In this document: piece by piece, positions 5,586 through 50,527 of the stretch | Numbering within the stretch: the stretch's first letter is position 1 | Layout of the letters: every line of letters begins with the position of its first letter | Virus record (IMG/VR): IMGVR_UViG_3300037742_000095 | Location: 1 to 63,311 of that record | Length of the DNA stretch: 63,311 nt | From: a virus | Taxonomy: Duplodnaviria > Caudoviricetes | Reading direction: 5' to 3' (one strand) | Position numbers and translations under genes: made by a program | The notes under the pieces: generated by a model | Databases searched by the model: none | Told to the model about the DNA's origin: nothing | What the model saw: the letters and a program-made list of their open reading frames with translations, nothing else

Positions 5586-6404
5586 ATGGCGCAACCGTGT
5601 ACGACCTGGGACGTTGACCCGGCCGCGCTCGGCGTGTGCTCGGGATGGAACGAGTACTCCGCAGAGATCAAGTTCTGGTCCCTGAAGCTGGCCACACTGT
5701 GGCTCTGGGGTGCGACCGGCCGCCGGTTCGGGCCCTGCCCGATCACCGTCCGGCCCGCTCAGCCCAAGGGCTCCCCGCTGGCGTACCGGGATTACCCCGC
5801 GATGCCCGGCGCCGAGGGCCTGGGCGTGCCGGGCGGTCCCTACCTGTACGCCGGTCGCTGGTACAACGCCGGGTGCACGATGGGCTGCTGCGGATCGGGC
5901 GGTTGCTCGATCGTGCTCCGCGGACCCGTGTACGCCATCGACGAGGTACTGGTGGACGGGACCGTGGTCCCCCCGTCAGCTTATCGGGTCGACGTCACGG
6001 GCGGTGCCTGGTTGCTCGTTCGTACGGATGGCAGTTGCTGGCCGACCTGCCAGAACTTCACCCGGGCCACCACCGAGGACGACACGTTCGAGGTCAGTTA
6101 CTCGATCGGGGAGGAGATCCCGGACGGACTCCTGCTGGCTGCCGGGATGCTGGCCTGCGAGTACGGCAGCCATCTGACCGGCGGCCGGTGCGCGCTGCCC
6201 GCCAAGATGACCCGGCTCTCACGCCAAGGCGTCGAGGTGGAGATCGAACCACCCAGTCCGGCGGACGGCCGGACCGGCATCGCGATGGTGGACAGCGTCG
6301 TGGCGACGCTGAACCCGAGCGGGCTGAAGGCGCCGCCGGTCGTGCTCTCGCTCGACCTCCCCGAGCAGTGCGATCGGTTCACCGTGATCCCGGCGGGCAG
6401 CTGA
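5586..6404 (+). CDS. Head-to-tail adaptor
   Basis: LWGATGRRFGPCPITVRP, CALP...LSRQGV, TGI..VD motifs; synteny. Confidence 0.7.
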   Translation: MAQPCTTWDVDPAALGVCSGWNEYSAEIKFWSLKLATLWLWGATGRRFGPCPITVRPAQPKGSPLAYRDYPAMPGAEGLGVPGGPYLYAGRWYNAGCTMGCCGSGGCSIVLRGPVYAIDEVLVDGTVVPPSAYRVDVTGGAWLLVRTDGSCWPTCQNFTRATTEDDTFEVSYSIGEEIPDGLLLAAGMLACEYGSHLTGGRCALPAKMTRLSRQGVEVEIEPPSPADGRTGIAMVDSVVATLNPSGLKAPPVVLSLDLPEQCDRFTVIPAGS

Positions 6405-6405
6405 G

Positions 6406-6957
6406 ATGGCCATCTCCGACCCCCTCGTCATGCCGCTGGCCCTGGAGCTGCTGGAGTGCTACGAGCAGGAGCTGGCCAAGGTAGCCAGTCCGCCGGAGTA
6501 CATCGGCATCCGGCCGGGCACCACCGTTGACTTTCTCCTGTCAACGTCCGAGGACGAGTGCTGCGCCGGGCTGGCCTGGATCCGCCCCGCCGGGTTCTTC
6601 CCCAGCTCGGGCCCGTTTCCGAACCCGGATGAGACGCCATTGACCAAGGGCGTGCTGGCCTGGGGAGTGACGCTGGAGATGGGCATCGTGGTCTGCGCCC
6701 CGACGCCGGATGCCAACGCGATCCCCAGCGCCGAGGACTGGCTGGCCACCACTCAGGAAGTCATGGACGCGGCGGCCGCGATGCGGCGGGCGATCTGCTG
6801 CTTCATCGACGCCAAGCCGAACCAGCGCAAACAGAACGTTCTCCCCGGCCTTTGGCAGCCGGTGGCAGTGCAGGGCGGCTGTGTCGGCGGTGTCCTGCCG
6901 GTCACGCTGCGCGGACCAGCCTGTGATTGCGTGGACGCGGGGCCGACCTCATCCTGA
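6406..6957 (+). CDS. Virion neck / tail-terminator-like protein
   Basis: Synteny; C-terminal QGGCVGG motif. Confidence 0.55.
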   Translation: MAISDPLVMPLALELLECYEQELAKVASPPEYIGIRPGTTVDFLLSTSEDECCAGLAWIRPAGFFPSSGPFPNPDETPLTKGVLAWGVTLEMGIVVCAPTPDANAIPSAEDWLATTQEVMDAAAAMRRAICCFIDAKPNQRKQNVLPGLWQPVAVQGGCVGGVLPVTLRGPACDCVDAGPTSS

Positions 6958-6961
6958 ACAG

Positions 6962-7570
6962 CAAGCGGCCCCCACGGGGATCTCTGCCACACGTAGGGGC
7001 CGCGCCAACTGAGAAGTACTTTACAGGCGTTGCTGCGAAGATTACAAGGGTTCACCTCACGTCATTGTGAACCTTGTCCGGAATCACGACTGAATTGGTC
7101 CTGATGCCCGCATTACGTTCGCGGCACTCGGTGTCCATCAGTATCCGGCTGTTTGGTGCAACCCGAGGGACGGACGATGACCAGGGTTTCCCCTGCCGTG
7201 TTTGCTCTCCCTCCGCTCGGGCTCGTGACGACGGGTGAACTTGAACCACCGGGGCCTATCGGCCACTCCTCCCCCTCAGAACCGTTGATCAGACGGGCGG
7301 TTTGCCGGGACGTGCGCACGTCCTGCACAACCAGGGGTGCTCTACCAACTGAGCTACGTCGCCTAGTTTTGGTGCGACCTGGCCGGGATTACTCCCGGCC
7401 AGGTCAGCCGGATTCTGGTGGGCCGACTCCCCTGGTCCCGCTTCGCTCCGGACCTCAAGCGCTCCCTTGCTGCTGCGGTCTTTGAGTAAGGCAGGAGAGG
7501 TGTCGATTTTCCCTTGGGGATCGATCCTTCCGACCCTTGCGGTTATTGCTGTTCCCGGCCTGCCTTACAA
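6962..7570 (-). ncRNA. Putative ~600-nt structured non-coding transcript
   Basis: No credible ORF; minus-strand promoter 7576-7604; many hairpins, with GNRA loops on the minus strand. Confidence 0.6.
7226..7363 (-). tRNA. Aberrant tRNA-like RNA (138 nt) with expanded anticodon arm
   Basis: Acceptor GGCGACG/CGTCGTC, D-arm TAGCTCAGTTGGTAGAGC, T-arm GGTGG-TTCAAGT-TCACC, stem CCCCT/AGGGG enclosing 56 nt. Confidence 0.7.
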
Positions 7571-7575
7571 GATGA

Positions 7576-7604
7576 ACCTTACCGGCATGCCGGGGAGGTG
7601 TCAA
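7576..7604 (-). promoter_or_regulatory. Phage promoter motif copy driving the ncRNA region
   Basis: TTGACA-CCTCCCCGGCATGCCGG-TAAGGT. Confidence 0.8.
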
Positions 7605-7620
7605 CCCGTATCGTGAAGAC

Positions 7621-8034
7621 ATGGTCGCTCACACGCTTCGGCTCAACAAGCCCCAGCTCAACGGGGTCGGCATCCGCGGGGCCCGGCGAGCTGTCGGCCG
7701 GGTGGTCCGGCAGACTTTGAACCGGTCCCAGGCGCTTTGCCCGGTGGACACCGGGAACCTGCGCGCCACCGGCCAGAGCAACGTCACCACTGCGGGCCTG
7801 GTGGTCGTCGGGGAGGTCGTCTACACGGCGGACTACGCCGCTGCCGTGCACAACGGCCGCCGCGCGCTGACCATCCGGTCCACCCGGCCCGGCGGCATGC
7901 TGAGGTTCCTCGTCGGCGGCCGGACGGTCTACGCCCGGCAGGTCCACCAGCCCGCTCGGGCCGGGCGCCCGTTCCTGGCTACCGCGCTCCGGGAGGTCGC
8001 GGCTCAGGAAGGCTTCTCGGTCTCGATCGGCTGA
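7621..8034 (+). CDS. HK97 gp10-like tail completion protein
   Basis: CPVDTGNLRAT, YAAAVHNG, RPFL motifs. Confidence 0.75.
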   Translation: MVAHTLRLNKPQLNGVGIRGARRAVGRVVRQTLNRSQALCPVDTGNLRATGQSNVTTAGLVVVGEVVYTADYAAAVHNGRRALTIRSTRPGGMLRFLVGGRTVYARQVHQPARAGRPFLATALREVAAQEGFSVSIG

Positions 8035-31345: not shown

Positions 31346-33006
31346 TGCTGGCGCTTCGTGAGTATCAGGAGAAAGCGCTGGCCGCTGTGGACCAGGCCGA
31401 GCGCGAGGGGGTCAAGCGGCCTCTGGTCGTGCACCCGACCGGCACCGGGAAGACCGTGACGTTCTCGCACGTGGTTGATCGACGCGCGTCGCTCGGCCGC
31501 TCCCTGGTGATCGTGCACCGCGAGGAGCTGGCCGAGCAGGCGGCCGACAAGATCCGGCGGACGGCACCGCACCTCAACCCCGGCATCGTCAAGGCGGAGC
31601 GCAATGAGGTGGACCGGGATGTGGTGATCGCCAGCGTGCAGACCGCGCACCGTGACACCCGGCTGGCCCAGCTGGGCGAGTTCGCCACGGTCATCGTCGA
31701 TGAGGCGCACCACGCCCCGGCGCCGACCTGGACCAAGCTGCTGACCGGTCTCGGTTCCTTCTCCCCGTACGGGCCGCTGACCATCGGGTTCACGGCCACG
31801 CCGGAGCGCGATGGCAAGTCGCTCGGTGTGTGGGAGAAGGTTGTCTCTTACATGTCAATCCGGGAGGCGATCTACGGCGGCTGGCTCTGCCCGATCCTCC
31901 CGGCCGTGGTCGTCGAGACCAACATGGACCTGGACCGGGTCCGCAAATCGGGGGGCGACTACTCCGACGGCGATCTCGGCCACGCTCTGGAGGAGTCCGG
32001 CGCCATCGCGCAGATGGCCGACGCGTACAAGGCAGAGGCCGCAGATCGAAAGGGCGTTGCCTTCCTGCCGACCGTGAAGACCTCAGCCATGCTGGCTGAT
32101 GCACTGCGGGCACGCGGCATCCCGGCCGAGCACCTGGACGGCACCACCGCGGCCGACGAGCGCCGGGCCATCCTCCGGCGGCTGAAGACCGGCGAGACCC
32201 AGGTGGTAACCAACTGCGGGGTCCTGACCGAGGGGTTCGACGAGCCTTCGATCTCCTGCGTGCTGGTCGGCCGCCCGACCAAGTTCCACGGCCTGTACGT
32301 CCAGATGGTCGGCCGGGGCACCCGGCTGTGCGTCGGCAAAGAGAACCTGCTCGTCATCGATGTGGTCGGCGCTTCCACCCGGCACGAGCTGGTGGGCCTG
32401 GTGGACCTCGGGCTGGAGCTGGACGACCCCCGCAAGAAGCGCGACGGGGAGCCGGAGCGCAAGCCGTGCCCGATGTGCCAGGTGCCTTGTGAGTTCGCCG
32501 AGCACCGGTGCGCGCTGTGCCACCGTTACCTCCCCCGGGAGGCGCTCTATGACGGTGCCACGCGGCACGAGAACTGCCACGCGGGCAAGGCCAAGAAGGT
32601 TGATGTCTTCGGCTCGTCCAAGTTGCGGTGGCTACCGGTGGAGAACGGCTGGTGCCTGGGCGCCGGTCAGGAGGTCGTGGTCATGGTGCCCGCCGGGATC
32701 GACACGTGGCGGCTGGCCGCTTACAAGGGCGGCAAGGTCGAGGTGCTGCACGAGGAGCTGCCGACTGACTGGGCGATGAACATCGGCAACGACCGGGCGA
32801 AAGCGTTCCTGAAGCTCGTCGAGCGGGATGCGCGCTGGTTGCGTGGTGCTGTCACGGACGCGCAGAAAGGTCGTCTGATCCGCGAGGGCTTCCCGGAGAG
32901 CAAGCTGCACCGGGTGGAGACGCGCGGGGACGCGGCCGACTTGATCACGCGGATCAGCGGACGTCGGGCGGTACGTCGATTGACTACCTCCCCGGCAGGG
33001 CGGTAA
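31342..33006 (+). CDS. Superfamily 2 (DEAD/DEAH) helicase with Zn-finger insert
   Basis: LREYQ, PTGTGKT, DEAHH, TATP, LTEGFD, QMVGRGTR. Confidence 0.95.
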   Translation: MMLALREYQEKALAAVDQAEREGVKRPLVVHPTGTGKTVTFSHVVDRRASLGRSLVIVHREELAEQAADKIRRTAPHLNPGIVKAERNEVDRDVVIASVQTAHRDTRLAQLGEFATVIVDEAHHAPAPTWTKLLTGLGSFSPYGPLTIGFTATPERDGKSLGVWEKVVSYMSIREAIYGGWLCPILPAVVVETNMDLDRVRKSGGDYSDGDLGHALEESGAIAQMADAYKAEAADRKGVAFLPTVKTSAMLADALRARGIPAEHLDGTTAADERRAILRRLKTGETQVVTNCGVLTEGFDEPSISCVLVGRPTKFHGLYVQMVGRGTRLCVGKENLLVIDVVGASTRHELVGLVDLGLELDDPRKKRDGEPERKPCPMCQVPCEFAEHRCALCHRYLPREALYDGATRHENCHAGKAKKVDVFGSSKLRWLPVENGWCLGAGQEVVVMVPAGIDTWRLAAYKGGKVEVLHEELPTDWAMNIGNDRAKAFLKLVERDARWLRGAVTDAQKGRLIREGFPESKLHRVETRGDAADLITRISGRRAVRRLTTSPAGR

Positions 33007-33009
33007 GGT
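32980..33009 (+). promoter_or_regulatory. Phage promoter motif copy
   Basis: TTGACT-ACCTCCCCGGCAGGGCGG-TAAGGT. Confidence 0.7.
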
Positions 33010-33081
33010 TCACCTCCCGGTTGGGGGGAGATAGGTCCCCCAACCAGGTCAACCAGGGGAAATAGGACGGGGAGGTCCAGA

Positions 33082-36700: not shown

Positions 36701-38268
36701 AGGGTGTCATGACGATGGAGGAGGTCCACCAGCTGGCGGCCGACGGCCGGGTGTTCGATGCGCTGCTGGCCGCCCGGTACCTGGACCCGCCGATGGCCCG
36801 GGACAAGGGCGTGGACGCCACCCGCAAGTACGACCTCGGGGCGCTCGGGGAGAAGTACGGGCTGGGCGCCAAGCAGACCGACGTCAGCAAACCGTTGGCC
36901 AAGAAATATGGCGGTTGGGGAGAAATCCCGATCGATGTCAGCGACCCAGACCCGGATCGGGCCGCTGATGCTCAGGCGTTCCAGGGCTACATGGTCCAGG
37001 ACGTTGAACTGAGCCGCTCGTTGTACTCGCGGTTGATGGAGGAGTTCGGCGGCACCGTGCCGGAGTATCTCCGGCGCGAGCACCGGGTGGCCGCCATTGC
37101 CAGCCAGATCTCGGTGAATGGCTTCCTGGTGGACCAGGAGCTGTTGAGCCAGCGGGTGACCGAGATCGAGCGGCGCAAGGCCAGCGCGATGGAGATGCTG
37201 GCAGCCAAGTACGGGGTACCCACTCACGACCCGAAGGGCAAGCCGTACAAGTCGCCGCTGGCGACCAAGGGCGGCAAGGAGGCGATCGGCGCCGCGCTGG
37301 TGGCCGCCGGGATCCCGGCCAAGGCGCTCTGGCGGACCGAAACCAGCAAGGATCTCCAGCTGAGCGCGGACGCGATGCTCCACTACGGCCGGGATTACCA
37401 CCACCTCCCGGCGGTGGTCGAGGTGGCCAAGGCGGTCTACCGGATCGTGTCGGCCCGCTCGATCTACGAGACGACCCGCAACAGCATGGGTCCGGACGGC
37501 CGCATCCACCCGAAGGTCAGCTTCCGGCAGGCCACCGGCCGGTGGTCGCTGACCGAGCCCGGGTTGACAGTGTTCGGCAAGCGCGGTGGCCGCCACGTGG
37601 AGCGTGATGTGCTGCTGGCCGACCCGGGCGAGGTGCTGGTGGCATTCGACCTCTCGCAGGTCGACATGCGCGCCATCGCTGGTCTCAGCCAGGACCAGGC
37701 GTACATTCAGATGCTGCTCACCGAGGACCCCCACGCCGAGCTGGCGGAGCTGCTGCTAGGCGACCGGAGTAAGCGCGAGACGGCCAAGCCGATCGGTCAC
37801 GGCTGGAACTACGGCCGGGGAGTCAAGGCGATCTGCCAGGCCAACAACCTGGACCCGGCGGTGGGCTGGAAGTTCGACCAGTCGATGCGTGAGCGCTTCC
37901 CCCGGGTGGTCGACTGGCAGACCGAGGTCCGCGCGCTGGCTGCTTCCGGACAGCTGCTCGATAACGGGTTCGGGCGGCTGATGCGGCCGGACCCCCAGCG
38001 GGCACACACCCAGGGCCCGGCGCTGATGGGTCAGGGTGCAGCTCGCGATCTGATGATGGAGGGCATGCTCCGGCTCCCGGCCGAGTGCCTGCCGATGCTG
38101 CGCGCCCAGGTGCATGACGAAATTGTGCTGAGCATCCCGGTCAAGCAGGTCGAAGAGGTCAGCCGGGCCGTCATCGAGGCGCTCTCGTTCGAGTGGCGCG
38201 GGGTGCCGATCCTGGCCGACCGGTCGCGCGCTGGAGCGTCGTGGGGTCGCTGTTACACCAAGGATTGA
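33781..38268 (+). CDS. Primase(Toprim)-helicase/ATPase-DNA polymerase A fusion
   Basis: LLIEGTKQ/ILDAD; GVGKNLL and FLFDE; exonuclease FDLET, GHNVMAFD, YMVQD; PolA DLSQVDMR, RETAK...YG, VHDE. Confidence 0.92.
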   Translation: MGDDTSRSAEGKLTEDHAVYLASQAVDVKLAESLGVRSLLTAEDVAALGDPAWTNFANLPAIAFPWTNEDGEVMWQARPDNPTVDQKTGKPRKYVFARQAVPKLWAVRPVADAQQILLIEGTKQCLAGASYAPPGVGVYGFAGARLWQHNGHPIPDLIVADGREVIVILDADAATNPQVYDAGTNLAAALGMEGATKVLFTRLMGAEKSGLDDILAGRQPERRASMLARLIKNAKPKPADVKPKPAKKAGKAPAGEEGRVTIIVNRDRLAVINDLTQALLDKWNASALFCHGGVISRREGDRMTPVDRGSFHDLVQATAMTVNENEGANGTTYSFAWPDSGTMAATMSRANQFAALDRITHAPFIRPDGTVASEPGYDEDTRTLLLPDEVFAGLEVPEDPTPEQVAAARELIMTEWLGDFPLDAEADRANLLGLIVTPAIRGMVPRVPLAVVDGLQMGVGKNLLADSILTVYTGHAAQPMNWVSEPEELRKQITAAFRTGAEFFLFDEAHTVEGAPLAQALTAETWQDRILGVSTMANFPNRVTWISLGNNVQVKGDITRRVYRIALRPEYANPQDRPSSSFRHPGTSGLDLGSWTRKHRRELLTAVLTLVRAWFSAGSPYPKRGVSFGSFEAWERIVGGIVEHAGMTSFLGNLKVWRSESDFDTQYWLGHLAWLREQFGDEGFRTSDVKNKANTIGVDLYSAPPRLDDPTERTYGKALGEAYSRIAGRRYGALWVERAGHAHGHVSLWKVHESESLPPFPPGEGPSGPDTGPDTPPDNVPDSDLDIPLLDPAPENEHAEARGAAPEDTDGEGHDEVRGAVDTSVSISGPAAILHGEAPGLLAEMGRALAAQGLDTNGEPQHAGADGSCPDYGSALDPCPPGCASGTCVANLRPQPVDKVGDTVTFDLETGDAGDQYKHPGPGYTRIGATAMGDGPVKAYDLAVVTQVADDIRQGSTITGHNVMAFDLPVLVREGVMTMEEVHQLAADGRVFDALLAARYLDPPMARDKGVDATRKYDLGALGEKYGLGAKQTDVSKPLAKKYGGWGEIPIDVSDPDPDRAADAQAFQGYMVQDVELSRSLYSRLMEEFGGTVPEYLRREHRVAAIASQISVNGFLVDQELLSQRVTEIERRKASAMEMLAAKYGVPTHDPKGKPYKSPLATKGGKEAIGAALVAAGIPAKALWRTETSKDLQLSADAMLHYGRDYHHLPAVVEVAKAVYRIVSARSIYETTRNSMGPDGRIHPKVSFRQATGRWSLTEPGLTVFGKRGGRHVERDVLLADPGEVLVAFDLSQVDMRAIAGLSQDQAYIQMLLTEDPHAELAELLLGDRSKRETAKPIGHGWNYGRGVKAICQANNLDPAVGWKFDQSMRERFPRVVDWQTEVRALAASGQLLDNGFGRLMRPDPQRAHTQGPALMGQGAARDLMMEGMLRLPAECLPMLRAQVHDEIVLSIPVKQVEEVSRAVIEALSFEWRGVPILADRSRAGASWGRCYTKD

Positions 38269-38293
38269 CACCTCCCCGGCATGGCTGTAAGGT
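38265..38293 (+). promoter_or_regulatory. Promoter of the TIGR-Tas-like locus
   Basis: TTGACA-CCTCCCCGGCATGGCTG-TAAGGT; first unit starts 7 nt after the -10. Confidence 0.85.
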
Positions 38294-50457: not shown

Positions 50458-50486
50458 TAGACACCTCCCCGTCATGACGGTAAAGT
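50458..50486 (+). promoter_or_regulatory. Phage promoter motif copy
   Basis: TAGACA-CCTCCCCGTCATGACGG-TAAAGT, followed by an inverted half copy. Confidence 0.7.
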
Positions 50487-50527
50487 AGAAGTCATGCCGG
50501 GGAGGTACTCCGGCGGGGAAGGACGAG

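What the first reader, a model, noticed from the sequence alone, without database searches (positions are those of the whole stretch)
6962..7604. Antisense ~600-nt structured ncRNA operon inside the tail gene cluster
A consensus promoter fires leftward into ORF-free DNA made of serial stems: GTAAGGCAGG/CCTGCCTTAC, a 13-bp hairpin with GTAA loop at 7376-7405, CAGGG-GAAA-CCCTG, and GCGGCCCC/GGGGCCGC. Several modules end in ACCA followed by A-rich linkers (GGTCGC-ACCA-AAAC, GGTTGC-ACCA-AAC, GGCCC-ACCA-GAA, CAGG-ACCA-ATT). Inference: a polycistronic array of CCA-ended, minihelix-like RNAs.
Basis: partly seen in the sequence, partly recalled or inferred. Interest (0 to 1): 0.7.

Follow-up and report, generated by a model that had tools for sequence, protein, structure and literature searches.

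The report
Phage noncoding cassette with tRNA-shaped RNA
A 663-base gene-free insert between two head-tail genes of an uncultured actinobacterial phage is read backwards from a phage promoter and encodes a chain of folded RNAs built around a tRNA-shaped molecule that cannot decode, a kind of cargo that related phages carry at the same spot.

Summary
The stems, the leftward promoter and the lack of coding signal are all real. On the minus strand at 7363-7226 lies a tRNA cloverleaf (Rfam tRNA 36.5 bits, cut-off 29). Its anticodon loop is replaced by a roughly 55-nt three-way junction, and it has a long variable arm.

The 663-bp gap sits in a hypervariable slot. In about 90 related phage contigs the gap between the same two genes runs from about 0 to 1830 nt. 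The basal form, as in Actinoplanes phage phiAsp2, is about 110 nt: a leftward promoter plus a hairpin. Longer forms start with the same leftward promoter and carry either small protein genes or folded RNAs.

A strict T-arm motif occurs 16 times on the minus strand of 24.8 kb of gaps, 0 times on their plus strand, and 14 times in 654 kb of flanks. Homologous tRNA-likes have anticodon loops of 6, 7 or 8 nt, or 50-80-nt insertions, so they are kept for shape and not for decoding.

ACCA itself is not enriched (P = 0.15). A helix-GCACCAA motif does recur directly upstream of the tRNA-likes in three lineages.

Best reading: an accessory noncoding RNA cassette read by the host polymerase, with a tRNA-shaped scaffold or processing handle. 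Its function is unknown and no RNA data exist.

The parts
7576..7604 (-). Promoter P1: TTGACA, a 17-nt conserved spacer, then TAAGGT. The inferred start is near 7569.
   Evidence: exact site, second copy at 38265 +. (4 copies in the genome). (same site and orientation in relatives). The generic scan did not flag it.
7486..7568 (-). Module A: a 10-bp stem starting at the inferred transcript start, closing a 63-nt branched interior.
   Evidence: I8. (z = -3.26, 1 of 200 shuffles as good). By eye on the sequence printed, L072 has an 8-bp closing stem of different sequence at the same place, with the inner CGAU/AUCG hairpin shared.
7429..7480 (-). Module B: GACC...GGUC hairpin and a short GCGAAGC hairpin.
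   Evidence: 7366-7480: z = -3.63, 0 of 200. Weakly alignable with L072.
7406..7428 (-). 6-bp hairpin with the 11-nt loop CCCACCAGAAU.
   Evidence: Identical in L072. In L026 the stem has different bases on both sides at 3 of 6 pairs and the loop is CCUACCAGAAU (sequences). L011 and L017 have a similar ACYAGAA loop with compensatory stem changes.
7376..7405 (-). Perfect 13-bp hairpin capped by the GNRA loop GUAA.
   Evidence: I2. L072 and L026 have a different helix at this position.
7364..7375 (-). Linker GCACCAAAACUA, copy 1 of the helix-GCACCAA motif. It abuts the tRNA-like 5' end.
   Evidence: D2; P = 0.0016 for two copies; the same motif directly upstream of tRNA-likes in L072 and L026. 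A 99.5%-identical strain diverges from the window exactly at 7364/7365 (run X2).
7226..7363 (-). tRNA-like RNA with these parts:
- a 7-bp acceptor;
- U8;
- a D arm with G18 G19;
- a 5-bp anticodon stem;
- a three-way junction in place of the anticodon loop;
- a 21-nt variable arm;
- a T arm with a TTCAAGT loop;
- discriminator A;
- no encoded CCA.
   Evidence: Rfam RF00005: 36.5 bits against cut-off 29, E 2e-5, and the only Rfam hit in 63 kb. The energy-only fold recovers the cloverleaf. Homologues in L072 and L008 keep all arms, with changes on both sides in 6 of 7 acceptor pairs. Default ARAGORN finds nothing.
7299..7332 (-). Insertion arm H1: a rod with a GCGC loop. It is nearly a perfect palindrome.
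   Evidence: I3. Its length and sequence vary in L072 and L008, and the base helix covaries.
7282..7296 (-). Insertion arm H2: a 4-bp stem whose loop holds the self-complementary UGAUCA.
   Evidence: L008 has UGAUCA and L072 has UGUACA at the same place, and L072 has a further UGAUCA in the tip loop of H1.
7160..7223 (-). Long irregular hairpin capped by the GNRA loop GAAA.
   Evidence: z = -2.73, 1 of 200.
7149..7159 (-). Copy 2 of the helix-GCACCAA motif.
   Evidence: (D2).
7135..7151 (-). 3' arm of a possible 17-nt long-range helix (15 of 17 paired) with 7405-7421. It overlaps the motif GAUGGACACC (7139-7130).
   Evidence: I1. L072 has no matching downstream arm by my reading of the sequence printed, so the helix is doubtful. 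GAUGGACACC also follows the tRNA-likes of L011 and L017.
7049..7127 (-). 3' hairpins. The last one (7073-7049) is followed by a U-rich run and may end the P1 transcript.
   Evidence: 7040-7152: z = -1.66, 15 of 200 shuffles as good, so weak. The terminator scan found none.
7018..7047 (-). Second leftward promoter-like site P2: TTGTAA, 16 nt (from the coordinates), then TAAAGT.
   Evidence: Conserved with about 40 nt upstream in relatives. Present in the basal 110-nt gaps, including phiAsp2.
6965..7003 (-). Terminal 12-bp hairpin directly after the stop codon of the upstream gene.
   Evidence: I5; z = -2.66, 2 of 200. Present in nearly all relatives. In several the loop reads like a T loop, GGTTCGAnCC.

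Best explanation
The gap is an accessory noncoding RNA cassette, an 'RNA moron', inserted in a hypervariable slot between two head-tail connector genes of a phiAsp2-like actinobacterial phage.

Transcription. A host-type sigma-A promoter (P1) is used elsewhere in this genome for protein genes. Here it points backwards and drives a transcript of about 500-600 nt. This step is inferred from the sequence; no RNA data exist.

Folding. The transcript folds into separate modules: a 5' closed domain, hairpins, a tRNA-shaped RNA, and a GNRA-capped rod. This is shown by folding and by covariation.

The tRNA-shaped RNA. It keeps everything that makes the L-shape and the acceptor end: the acceptor, D and T arms, U8, G18 G19 and the T loop. 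A conserved three-way junction replaces the anticodon loop, so it cannot decode.

Mechanism I commit to (inferred). The tRNA body is a handle for the host's tRNA-processing enzymes and a stabilising scaffold.
- RNase P cuts at 7363 and a 3' tRNA-processing nuclease cuts after A7226.
- CCA is added by the host.
- This cuts the transcript into stable pieces.
- The tRNA-shaped piece displays the junction arms. One arm carries a self-complementary loop.
- The upstream piece is left with a helix-GCACCA(A) 3' region.

What the released RNAs act on is not known. The likeliest targets are host factors that recognise tRNA shape or tRNA ends.
For: The cassette is noncoding and structured:
- GC3 is flat and there are no family matches.
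- Folding z-scores run from -3 to -5.

The promoter:
- There are 4 copies in the genome. At least two of the other three precede ORFs that have ribosome-binding sites.
- It is conserved at the same place and orientation in relatives.

The tRNA-like:
- The Rfam hit is above the cut-off and is the only hit in the window.
- Cloverleaf arms are kept in three divergent homologues. Canonical pairs are acceptor 7/7, 7/7, 7/7; D 4/4 in all three; anticodon stem 5/5, 5/5, 4/5; T 5/5, 4/5, 5/5.
- 6 of 7 acceptor pairs change on both sides.

Non-decoding:
- The insertion is 55-80 nt in the three homologues and shares the same two-arm junction.
- ARAGORN's 'intron' sits at position 31/32 in the window but at 37/38 in L008, so there is no conserved splice reading.
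- A second family of homologous tRNA-likes (L011, L012, L017) has loops of 8, 7 and 6 nt on an otherwise conserved body with compensatory changes.

Locus-wide picture:
- All 5 Rfam tRNA hits found in the window and in 37 scanned relatives' loci lie in this gap on the minus strand.
- The strict T-arm motif occurs 16 times in 24.8 kb of gap minus strand (14 without one duplicate locus), 0 times on the gap plus strand, and 14 times in 654 kb of flanks.

Modules are separable:
- A 99.5%-identical strain swaps everything upstream of 7364, exactly at the tRNA-like 5' end.
- Another relative keeps 7218-7324 but replaces 7325-7557.
- L008 has the tRNA-like about 8 nt after the promoter, with no 5' modules.
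Against: - There is no transcript evidence at all. No RNA run holds the sequence.
- RNase P and 3'-end cleavage, CCA addition and stability are all inferred.
- Rfam's tRNA model does not score the L008 or L072 homologues. Default ARAGORN misses all three. Their cloverleaves rest on my manual segmentation.
- Relaxed ARAGORN is unreliable, with 45 calls in the window.
- G53 pairs with U61 in the window, and one T-stem or anticodon-stem mismatch occurs in each of L072 and L008.
- In L011 and L017 a structured leader abuts the acceptor stem. That fits an integrated fold as well as it fits a cleavage site.
- The phage carries no tRNA enzyme, Ro60, RtcB or reverse transcriptase that would point to a pathway.
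- Folding energy is as good on the plus strand.
Confidence: 0.5

Rival explanations
1. One integrated large ornate RNA of about 300-520 nt that works uncut. It would be a multi-way junction with a tRNA-like arm and GNRA loops for tertiary contacts. It may form dimers or larger assemblies through self-complementary loops, in the manner of GOLLD and ROOL.
For: - A 17-nt long-range helix (15 of 17 paired) would close hairpin, tRNA-like and rod into one domain (z = -4.96).
- There are two GNRA tetraloops (GUAA, GAAA).
- Arm H2 carries UGAUCA in the window and L008 and UGUACA in L072. All are self-complementary 6-mers, and L072 has a further UGAUCA in H1.
- GOLLD and ROOL are phage RNAs found near tRNA islands. 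GOLLD can hold a tRNA or pseudo-tRNA and forms cages (passages read in PMC6582537 and bioRxiv 10.1101/2024.12.08.627333).
- In L011 and L017 a conserved leader helix abuts the acceptor stem.
Against: - L072 has the identical 5' arm of the long-range helix, but I saw no downstream partner in the sequence printed. A local hairpin using the same bases covaries with L026.
- Near-identical strains swap modules at the tRNA-like border. That would break an integrated fold.
- There is no Rfam match to GOLLD, ROOL or any large RNA at E up to 10.
- The palindrome argument rests on three sequences and one double change.
Confidence: 0.15
2. Decoys. The tRNA-shaped RNA and the helix-GCACCA pieces soak up host factors that attack or use tRNAs, such as tRNA-cleaving or tRNA-end-modifying defence toxins, RNase P or the CCA enzyme. 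This would protect the host tRNA pool during infection.
For: - The cassette has a host-type promoter and opposite orientation to the structural operon, and sits in a fast-changing accessory slot with cassette swapping between near-identical strains. That is typical of arms-race cargo.
- tRNA shape is conserved without decoding.
- Phage tRNAs are reported to counter tRNA-targeting defences (PMC10264068 and PMC11555353; only titles and abstract openings seen in the listing).
Against: - An anticodon-nuclease decoy should keep a target-like anticodon loop, and here that loop is what is lost.
- No 3' end at CCA is shown.
- ACCA is not enriched.
- The host and its defences are unknown.
Confidence: 0.15
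3. A working tRNA gene, Arg(UCU) by ARAGORN's reading, interrupted by a short intron that is spliced out.
For: - With introns allowed, ARAGORN reads a 50-nt intron that leaves a loop with U33, anticodon UCU and a purine at 37.
- The insertion is flanked by an imperfect 7-nt direct repeat, GGTTGTG and GGTTCTG (read).
Against: - By recalled knowledge, bacterial tRNA introns are group I introns of about 200 nt or more. This insertion is 50-57 nt, and no intron family matched.
- The predicted intron position differs between homologues: 31/32 against 37/38.
- The 'anticodons' in homologues are unlikely ones.
- A 21-nt variable arm is foreign to tRNA-Arg.
- The relaxed ARAGORN setting gives 45 calls in this window, mostly inside genes.
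- The phage has no RNA ligase of the RtcB type.
Confidence: 0.04
4. No RNA function. The RNA content is debris of decayed tRNA genes in a recombination hot spot. What matters is backward transcription itself, which would interfere with or time the rightward late operon.
For: - P1 and P2 are conserved whatever the cargo is, whether protein genes, RNAs or nothing.
- Interior sequence conservation is very low.
- Some T-arm-like hairpins stand alone.
Against: - Cloverleaf arms are kept by compensatory changes across homologues that have otherwise diverged beyond alignment. Decay would break them.
- The T-arm motif is about 30-fold enriched and strictly strand-specific.
- The junction arms and the leader motif are conserved in three lineages.
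Confidence: 0.12

Closest known systems
GOLLD and ROOL large phage noncoding RNAs
   Same: They are phage or prophage RNAs of several hundred nt with unknown function, found in or beside tRNA islands. GOLLD can contain a tRNA or pseudo-tRNA in its variable part (passages read in PMC6582537 and bioRxiv 10.1101/2024.12.08.627333). Like those RNAs, this one has many stems and GNRA loops.
   Different: There is no match to either Rfam model at E up to 10 or at the gathering score in the whole window. This RNA has no large conserved core; only modules are shared. It lies in a structural-gene slot and not in a tRNA island, and it is shorter.
Phage tRNA arrays with co-transcribed small stable RNAs (T4 tRNA region, species 1 and 2 RNAs).
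   Same: A polycistronic transcript in which tRNA structures direct RNase P and 3' processing and release non-tRNA stable RNAs. Spacers between members are short.
   Different: Here the phage has no canonical tRNA at all, and the tRNA-shaped member itself cannot decode.
tmRNA
   Same: The topology matches: acceptor and T arm form a tRNA-like domain, and a large insertion replaces the anticodon arm.
   Different: There is no G3:U70 pair. Neither ARAGORN nor Rfam calls a tmRNA. A 16-codon frame from GCA to UGA inside the window's insertion is not kept in L008 or L072, by my reading of the sequences. A full D arm and an anticodon stem are present.
tRNA-scaffold and tRNA-linked RNAs: the MALAT1/mascRNA system, gammaherpesvirus 68 tRNA-miRNA transcripts, and engineered tRNA scaffolds. 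Recalled.
   Same: A tRNA-like fold serves as a processing signal and stabiliser for an attached or inserted RNA. In engineered scaffolds the cargo replaces the anticodon loop, as it does here.
   Different: Those are eukaryotic, viral-eukaryotic or synthetic. No natural bacterial or phage example of a cargo in the anticodon loop is known to me. Two full-text searches listed none.
YrlA (bacterial Y RNA with a tRNA-like domain). Recalled.
   Same: A non-decoding tRNA mimic that keeps the D/T elbow. It is also found in some actinobacterial phages.
   Different: YrlA is permuted: its acceptor is closed by a loop and its ends lie at the anticodon side, and it works with Ro60. Here the order is standard, the acceptor is open, and the phage has no TROVE/Ro60 gene.

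Membership tests
tRNA (Rfam RF00005), shape | Cloverleaf scoring at or above the family's gathering score | tested here: met
   36.5 bits against 29, model positions 1-71 of 71, minus strand 7226-7363.
tRNA, L-shape elements | 7-bp acceptor, U8, A14, G18 G19, a T loop TTCRANN closed by G53 | tested here: met
   Read. G53 pairs with U61, where C61 is usual.
Decoding tRNA | 7-nt anticodon loop with U33 and a purine at 37 on a 5-bp stem | tested here: not met
   The 5-bp stem closes a roughly 55-nt three-way junction. Default ARAGORN finds no tRNA. Homologues carry 55-80-nt insertions.
Decoding tRNA | 3' CCA encoded or added, followed by aminoacylation | not testable with these tools
   CCA is not encoded; the discriminator A is followed by CGA.
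Intron-bearing bacterial tRNA (group I intron) | A self-splicing intron with a group I core in the anticodon loop | tested here: not met
   The insertion is 50-57 nt, with no Intron_gpI or other ribozyme match at E up to 10. ARAGORN's intron position is not conserved.
tmRNA | G3:U70 alanine identity, a conserved tag reading frame, and detection by ARAGORN or Rfam | tested here: not met
GOLLD / ROOL | Match to the conserved core (Rfam models) | tested here: not met
   No match in the window region at E up to 10, in 15 long-gap relatives at E up to 1, or in 20 further relatives at the gathering score.
GOLLD / ROOL | Homo-oligomeric assembly | not testable with these tools
   The only hint is the self-complementary loops.
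tRNA minihelix / RNase P hairpin substrate with 3' NCCA | About 12 stacked bp with a T loop, one unpaired discriminator, then CCA at the 3' end | tested here: not met
   The stems are a 13-bp stem with a GNRA loop and a 64-nt irregular rod. Both are followed by three unpaired bases (GCA) before CCA. Whether CCA is a 3' end is not known.
YrlA / Y RNA | Permuted tRNA-like domain with a closed acceptor, and a Ro60 partner gene | tested here: not met
   The order is standard, and the phage has no TROVE match.
attP with a tRNA fragment | An integrase in the phage and a partial tRNA identical to a host tRNA end | tested here: not met
   No tyrosine or serine recombinase match. Both halves of the cloverleaf are present.

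The most novel reading that the evidence does not exclude
phiAsp2-like phages keep a dedicated, fast-evolving slot for non-decoding tRNA-shaped RNAs. The window's member would be a natural 'tRNA scaffold'. Its anticodon loop has been replaced by a conserved three-way junction whose self-complementary loop (UGAUCA or UGUACA) pairs two or more copies. That would make a new class of assembling phage RNA, or a new class of tRNA-mimic counter-defence RNA.
Probability: 0.15. Interest if true: 0.85.

Novelty: new variant of a known kind. Interest (0 to 1): 0.6.

Why it matters
Phage tRNAs are usually discussed as decoders, for codon supply or for escape from anticodon nucleases. Here a whole phage group keeps tRNA shape under selection while letting the anticodon loop shrink, grow or be replaced by a branched insert. 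It does this in a swap-prone cassette slot with its own backward promoter.

This gives a compact test case of about 140 to 600 nt, with natural variants. It can address what a tRNA body is good for outside translation: processing handle, scaffold, decoy or assembly unit. It also adds to the open question of why large phage RNAs such as GOLLD and ROOL keep company with tRNAs.

It also shows that standard tRNA finders miss these genes. ARAGORN called none of the three insertion-bearing elements.

Tried and rejected
Searches that found nothing or could not run:
- blastn of the gap against 50,697 phage records gave no match.
- An exact 27-mer of the tRNA-like 5' half had 0 hits in viral contigs.
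- A gapped pattern for arm H2 plus the tail gave 14 hits. Only one was a real homologue, the contig already held as L008; the other 13 were chance.
- The genome-collection scan found only 2 distant Streptosporangium prophages at 31% identity, so no host was named.
- RNA evidence: no RNA holder was listed. The four DNA runs laid are contigs and say nothing about expression.
- Literature: two full-text searches found no description of this kind of phage RNA ('tRNA-like / bacteriophage / anticodon loop / non-canonical tRNA'; 'tRNA-like / RNase P / phage / stable RNA'). Six papers mention phiAsp2, and none looked relevant by title or abstract opening. Supplements were not seen.

Methods that proved unreliable:
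- Relaxed ARAGORN with introns allowed gives 45 calls in the window, so its intron calls were dropped as evidence.
- The Rfam tRNA model misses L008 and L072.
- MAFFT alignments of the 5' modules and of the D arm of L072 were poor. I therefore segmented by hand. In that table the L072 H1 base helix is off by one and scores 2/4. Shifting the 3' strand by one base gives CCUG/CAGG, 4/4.

Ideas rejected:
- Coding region.
- attP.
- tmRNA, YrlA, retron-type or reverse-transcriptase-primer roles.
- A phage-borne CCA enzyme or RtcB ligase.
- A likeness of ACCAGAAUCCGGCU to the P4 strand of RNase P RNA. This was recalled; L026 does not keep it and there is no Rfam RNase P match.
- ACCA enrichment.
Full report
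WHAT THE WINDOW IS

The window is a complete 63,311-bp virus record with about 67% G+C. Its nearest named relative is Actinoplanes phage phiAsp2, at 57% identity over 79% of the major head protein. Almost all genes lie on the plus strand.

The finding lies in a 663-bp gap (6958-7620). The gap sits between a phrog_810 gene (6406-6957) and a tail-completion/neck gene (7621-8034), inside the head-tail connector block.

CHECK OF THE OBSERVATION

- the 10-bp pair at 7559-7568 / 7486-7495;
- the perfect 13-bp hairpin with a GTAA loop at 7376-7405;
- the 12-bp hairpin at 6965-7003.

CAGGG-GAAA-CCCTG is the tip of a 64-nt rod.

The region folds better than shuffles:
- whole gap, z = -4.29, 0 of 20 shuffles as good;
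- 7130-7426, z = -4.96, 0 of 200;
- single modules, z from -1.4 to -3.6.

The plus strand folds as well (z = -4.84). The strand is therefore set by other evidence.

The promoter is TTGACA-17 nt-TAAGGT at 7604-7576. The generic scan did not flag it, finding 0 promoters and 0 terminators. The 29-mer recurs on the plus strand at 38265, with weaker copies near 32980 and 50460. The copies near 32980 and 50460 precede ORFs that have ribosome-binding sites.

The gap has no coding signal:
- GC3 is 0.56-0.63 in all six frames, against 0.87-0.91 in the flanking genes.
- None of 8 gap ORFs has a Pfam match at E up to 0.1; one has a chance-level match at E 0.27.

ACCA is not enriched: 5 observed, 2.8 expected, P = 0.15. 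Two ACCA sites lie in a 12-nt direct repeat that follows helices. GCACCAA occurring twice has P = 0.0016.

Rfam finds a tRNA on the minus strand at 7363-7226. It scores 36.5 bits against a cut-off of 29 and covers the full model. A 59-nt stretch is skipped in the anticodon loop and there is an 18-nt extra arm. It is the only Rfam hit in the whole window.

Energy folding alone recovers the acceptor, D and T arms.

Default ARAGORN finds nothing. With introns allowed it reads tRNA-Arg(UCU) with a 50-nt intron. That setting gives 45 calls in this window, most of them inside genes, so I do not lean on it.

The 5-bp anticodon stem closes a three-way junction with these parts:
- arm H1 (7332-7299), a near-palindromic rod;
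- arm H2 (7296-7282), 4 bp with a 7-nt loop;
- a 5-nt single-stranded tail.

THE LOCUS IN RELATED PHAGES

Using the upstream protein I collected 2 + 40 + 54 related loci. Many of the last two sets are the same contigs.

The distance between the two flanking genes varies widely:
- In the first sets it ran from 16 to 1833 nt, and 13 of the 37 loci with both genes present had more than 300 nt.
- In the viral set it ran from about 0 to 1736 nt, and 22 of 52 had more than 300 nt.

The basal form of about 110 nt, which phiAsp2 has, is a leftward promoter-like site (P2) plus a hairpin directly after the upstream stop codon. The window has both, at 7047-7018 and 7003-6965.

Longer gaps usually begin, next to the downstream gene, with the same leftward P1 promoter. 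Between P1 and P2 the content is almost unalignable. It is either small protein genes (for example L024, L025, L068, L078, L100) or ORF-poor folded RNA.

tRNA-LIKE GENES ARE THE RECURRING RNA CARGO

- Rfam found tRNAs in L011, L012, L017 and L026, all inside the gap and all on the minus strand.
- It found none in L006 or L007, and none in 20 further, mostly short-gap loci.
- ARAGORN adds a tRNA-Gly(UCC)-like gene in L026.

A strict T-arm motif was defined as five canonical stem pairs, a G before a TTCRANN loop, and a pyrimidine after it. Its counts are:
- 16 on the minus strand of 35 unique gaps totalling 24,824 nt (14 if one surviving duplicate, L082 = L026, is removed);
- 0 on their plus strand;
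- 14 in 654,052 nt of flanks, both strands;
- 3 in the rest of the window.

These tRNA-likes are not decoders. L011, L012 and L017 are homologous. They share an identical T arm and a C1-A72 mismatch with discriminator C, and their acceptor and anticodon stems covary. Their anticodon loops are 8, 7 and 6 nt. L026 has another with a 6-nt loop.

HOMOLOGUES OF THE WINDOW'S OWN RNA

L072 aligns with the window from the promoter into the tRNA-like (nhmmer E 1.5e-13). L072 has:
- P1;
- a 5' domain closed by a stem that starts at the transcript start, with different bases from the window's stem;
- the identical hairpin with loop CCCACCAGAAU;
- a second, different helix;
- GCACCAA;
- directly after that, a tRNA-like with an 80-nt insertion.

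L008 has a third copy of the tRNA-like about 8 nt after P1, with a 55-nt insertion.

Hand segmentation gives these canonical pair counts for the window, L072 and L008:
- acceptor 7/7, 7/7, 7/7;
- D arm 4/4, 4/4, 4/4;
- anticodon stem 5/5, 5/5, 4/5;
- T arm 5/5, 4/5, 5/5.

RNAalifold on the MAFFT alignment counts changes on both sides in 6 of 7 acceptor pairs.

The insertion has the same plan in all three: H1 of variable length, H2 of 4-5 bp, and a tail. The H2 loop holds UGAUCA (window, L008) or UGUACA (L072). All are self-complementary 6-mers, and L072 has one more UGAUCA at the tip of H1. This is suggestive of loop-loop pairing, but it rests on three sequences.

Rfam's tRNA model does not score L008 or L072.

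THE ACCA QUESTION

- The 'GGCCC-ACCA-GAA' site is the loop of a conserved hairpin. It is identical in L072. In L026 the stem differs on both sides at 3 of 6 pairs. L011 and L017 have a related ACYAGAA loop.
- 'CAGG-ACCA-ATT' is not at a helix end.
- The two GCACCAA sites do follow helices. The motif also stands 0-5 nt upstream of the tRNA(-like) 5' end in the window, L072 and L026. So an upstream RNA ending in ...GCACCA after RNase P cleavage and trimming is possible.
- Against that, three unpaired bases precede CCA, and no end is shown.
- Across relatives ACCA is not enriched.

MODULES ARE SEPARABLE

Contigs from other samples were laid on the region.
- A strain with 6 differences in 1156 nt is colinear from 6209 to 7364. 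It then continues with 121 unlike letters, so it switches exactly at the tRNA-like 5' end.
- A more distant relative keeps 7218-7324 and 7558-8008 but has 408 other letters in place of 7325-7557.
- The 17-nt long-range helix (7405-7421 with 7135-7151) has no partner in L072, by my reading of the sequence. I therefore favour the local hairpin and an array of modules over one integrated fold.

CONTEXT

The phage has no match to a CCA-adding enzyme, Ro60 (TROVE), RtcB or reverse transcriptase. It has no tyrosine or serine recombinase, which also argues against an attachment site. No RNA run holds the sequence.

INTERPRETATION

Shown:
- a noncoding, structured insert with its own promoter motif;
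- a tRNA-shaped, non-decoding core maintained by compensatory change;
- a phage-group-wide slot enriched in such elements.

Inferred:
- transcription by the host polymerase from P1;
- processing at the tRNA-like borders;
- a scaffold or decoy role.

I rate the cassette-with-tRNA-like reading as very likely. The specific processing-scaffold mechanism is about even odds among the functional readings.

COMPARISON WITH KNOWN SYSTEMS

The nearest described things are GOLLD and ROOL. They are phage RNAs near tRNA islands, and GOLLD sometimes holds a tRNA or pseudo-tRNA (passages read). No model matches this RNA, and it has no large conserved core.

tmRNA shares the topology, but its defining features fail here. 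tRNA-scaffold systems work the same way, but they are eukaryotic or synthetic.

I file this as a new variant of a known kind: phage tRNA-associated noncoding RNA.

Noticed in passing
window 6965-7047; L096 (phiAsp2) and most relatives: A mini-unit of a leftward promoter-like site (TTGTGA-N17-TGTAAGGT type) plus a 9-12-bp hairpin sits right after the upstream stop codon. It is the conserved basal content of this gap, even at 110 nt. In a subset of the gaps listed the hairpin loop reads like a tRNA T loop (GGTTCGAnCC). In L095 the stem is 12 bp, the length of a stacked acceptor plus T stem.
   Followed up: partly
L011 3120-3372, L017 3384-3656, L012 3532-3732 (minus strand): A second family of tRNA-likes has a conserved C1-A72 mismatch, discriminator C and anticodon loops of 8, 6 and 7 nt. 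Each is preceded by a conserved, roughly 60-nt structured leader that abuts the acceptor stem, and each is followed by a hairpin with an ACYAGAA loop and then AUGGACACC.
   Followed up: partly
L009, L012 and L008 gaps (minus strand): Two further conserved RNA modules are not present in the window. One is a CGCGCAGGAAUCCGCCGAGAACGGC...GCCGUGACA...GGARAGACG block. The other is a CACUCCGGGAUAUUGCCCGGAGCCGGGACGCUGG block. The short motif GACA-stem-GRARAGAC-stem recurs many times in L026, L034, L035 and L040. None has an Rfam match.
   Followed up: no
L067 gap (minus strand), idx 100-360: There is a row of four T-arm-like hairpins, two of which pass the strict motif. One element has an extended anticodon stem and the 6-nt loop UUGGUC, and the same loop occurs in L034 and L035. 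ARAGORN calls none of them.
   Followed up: no
L024, L025, L068, L078, L100, L034/L035/L040 gaps: The same slot, with the same leftward promoters, carries small protein genes in other relatives. Several have signal-peptide-like N termini. The slot therefore accepts both protein and RNA cargo.
   Followed up: no
window 7576-7604, 38265-38293, about 32980-33010, about 50460-50490: The promoter's 17-nt spacer (CCTCCCCGGCATGCCGG) is as conserved as its hexamers, within the genome and across relatives. It contains a short palindrome. It may be an operator or a phage-specific promoter element.
   Followed up: no
window 7325-7275 (minus strand): A 16-codon frame from GCA to UGA lies wholly inside the tRNA-like's insertion, which recalls a tmRNA tag frame. 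It is not kept in L008 or L072.
   Followed up: partly
P2 region of relatives: TGATCA overlaps the -35 of P2 in most relatives (TTGTGATCA), and it is also the loop motif of arm H2 in the tRNA-like. This could be chance, a shared protein site, or an RNA-RNA contact within the read-through transcript.
   Followed up: no
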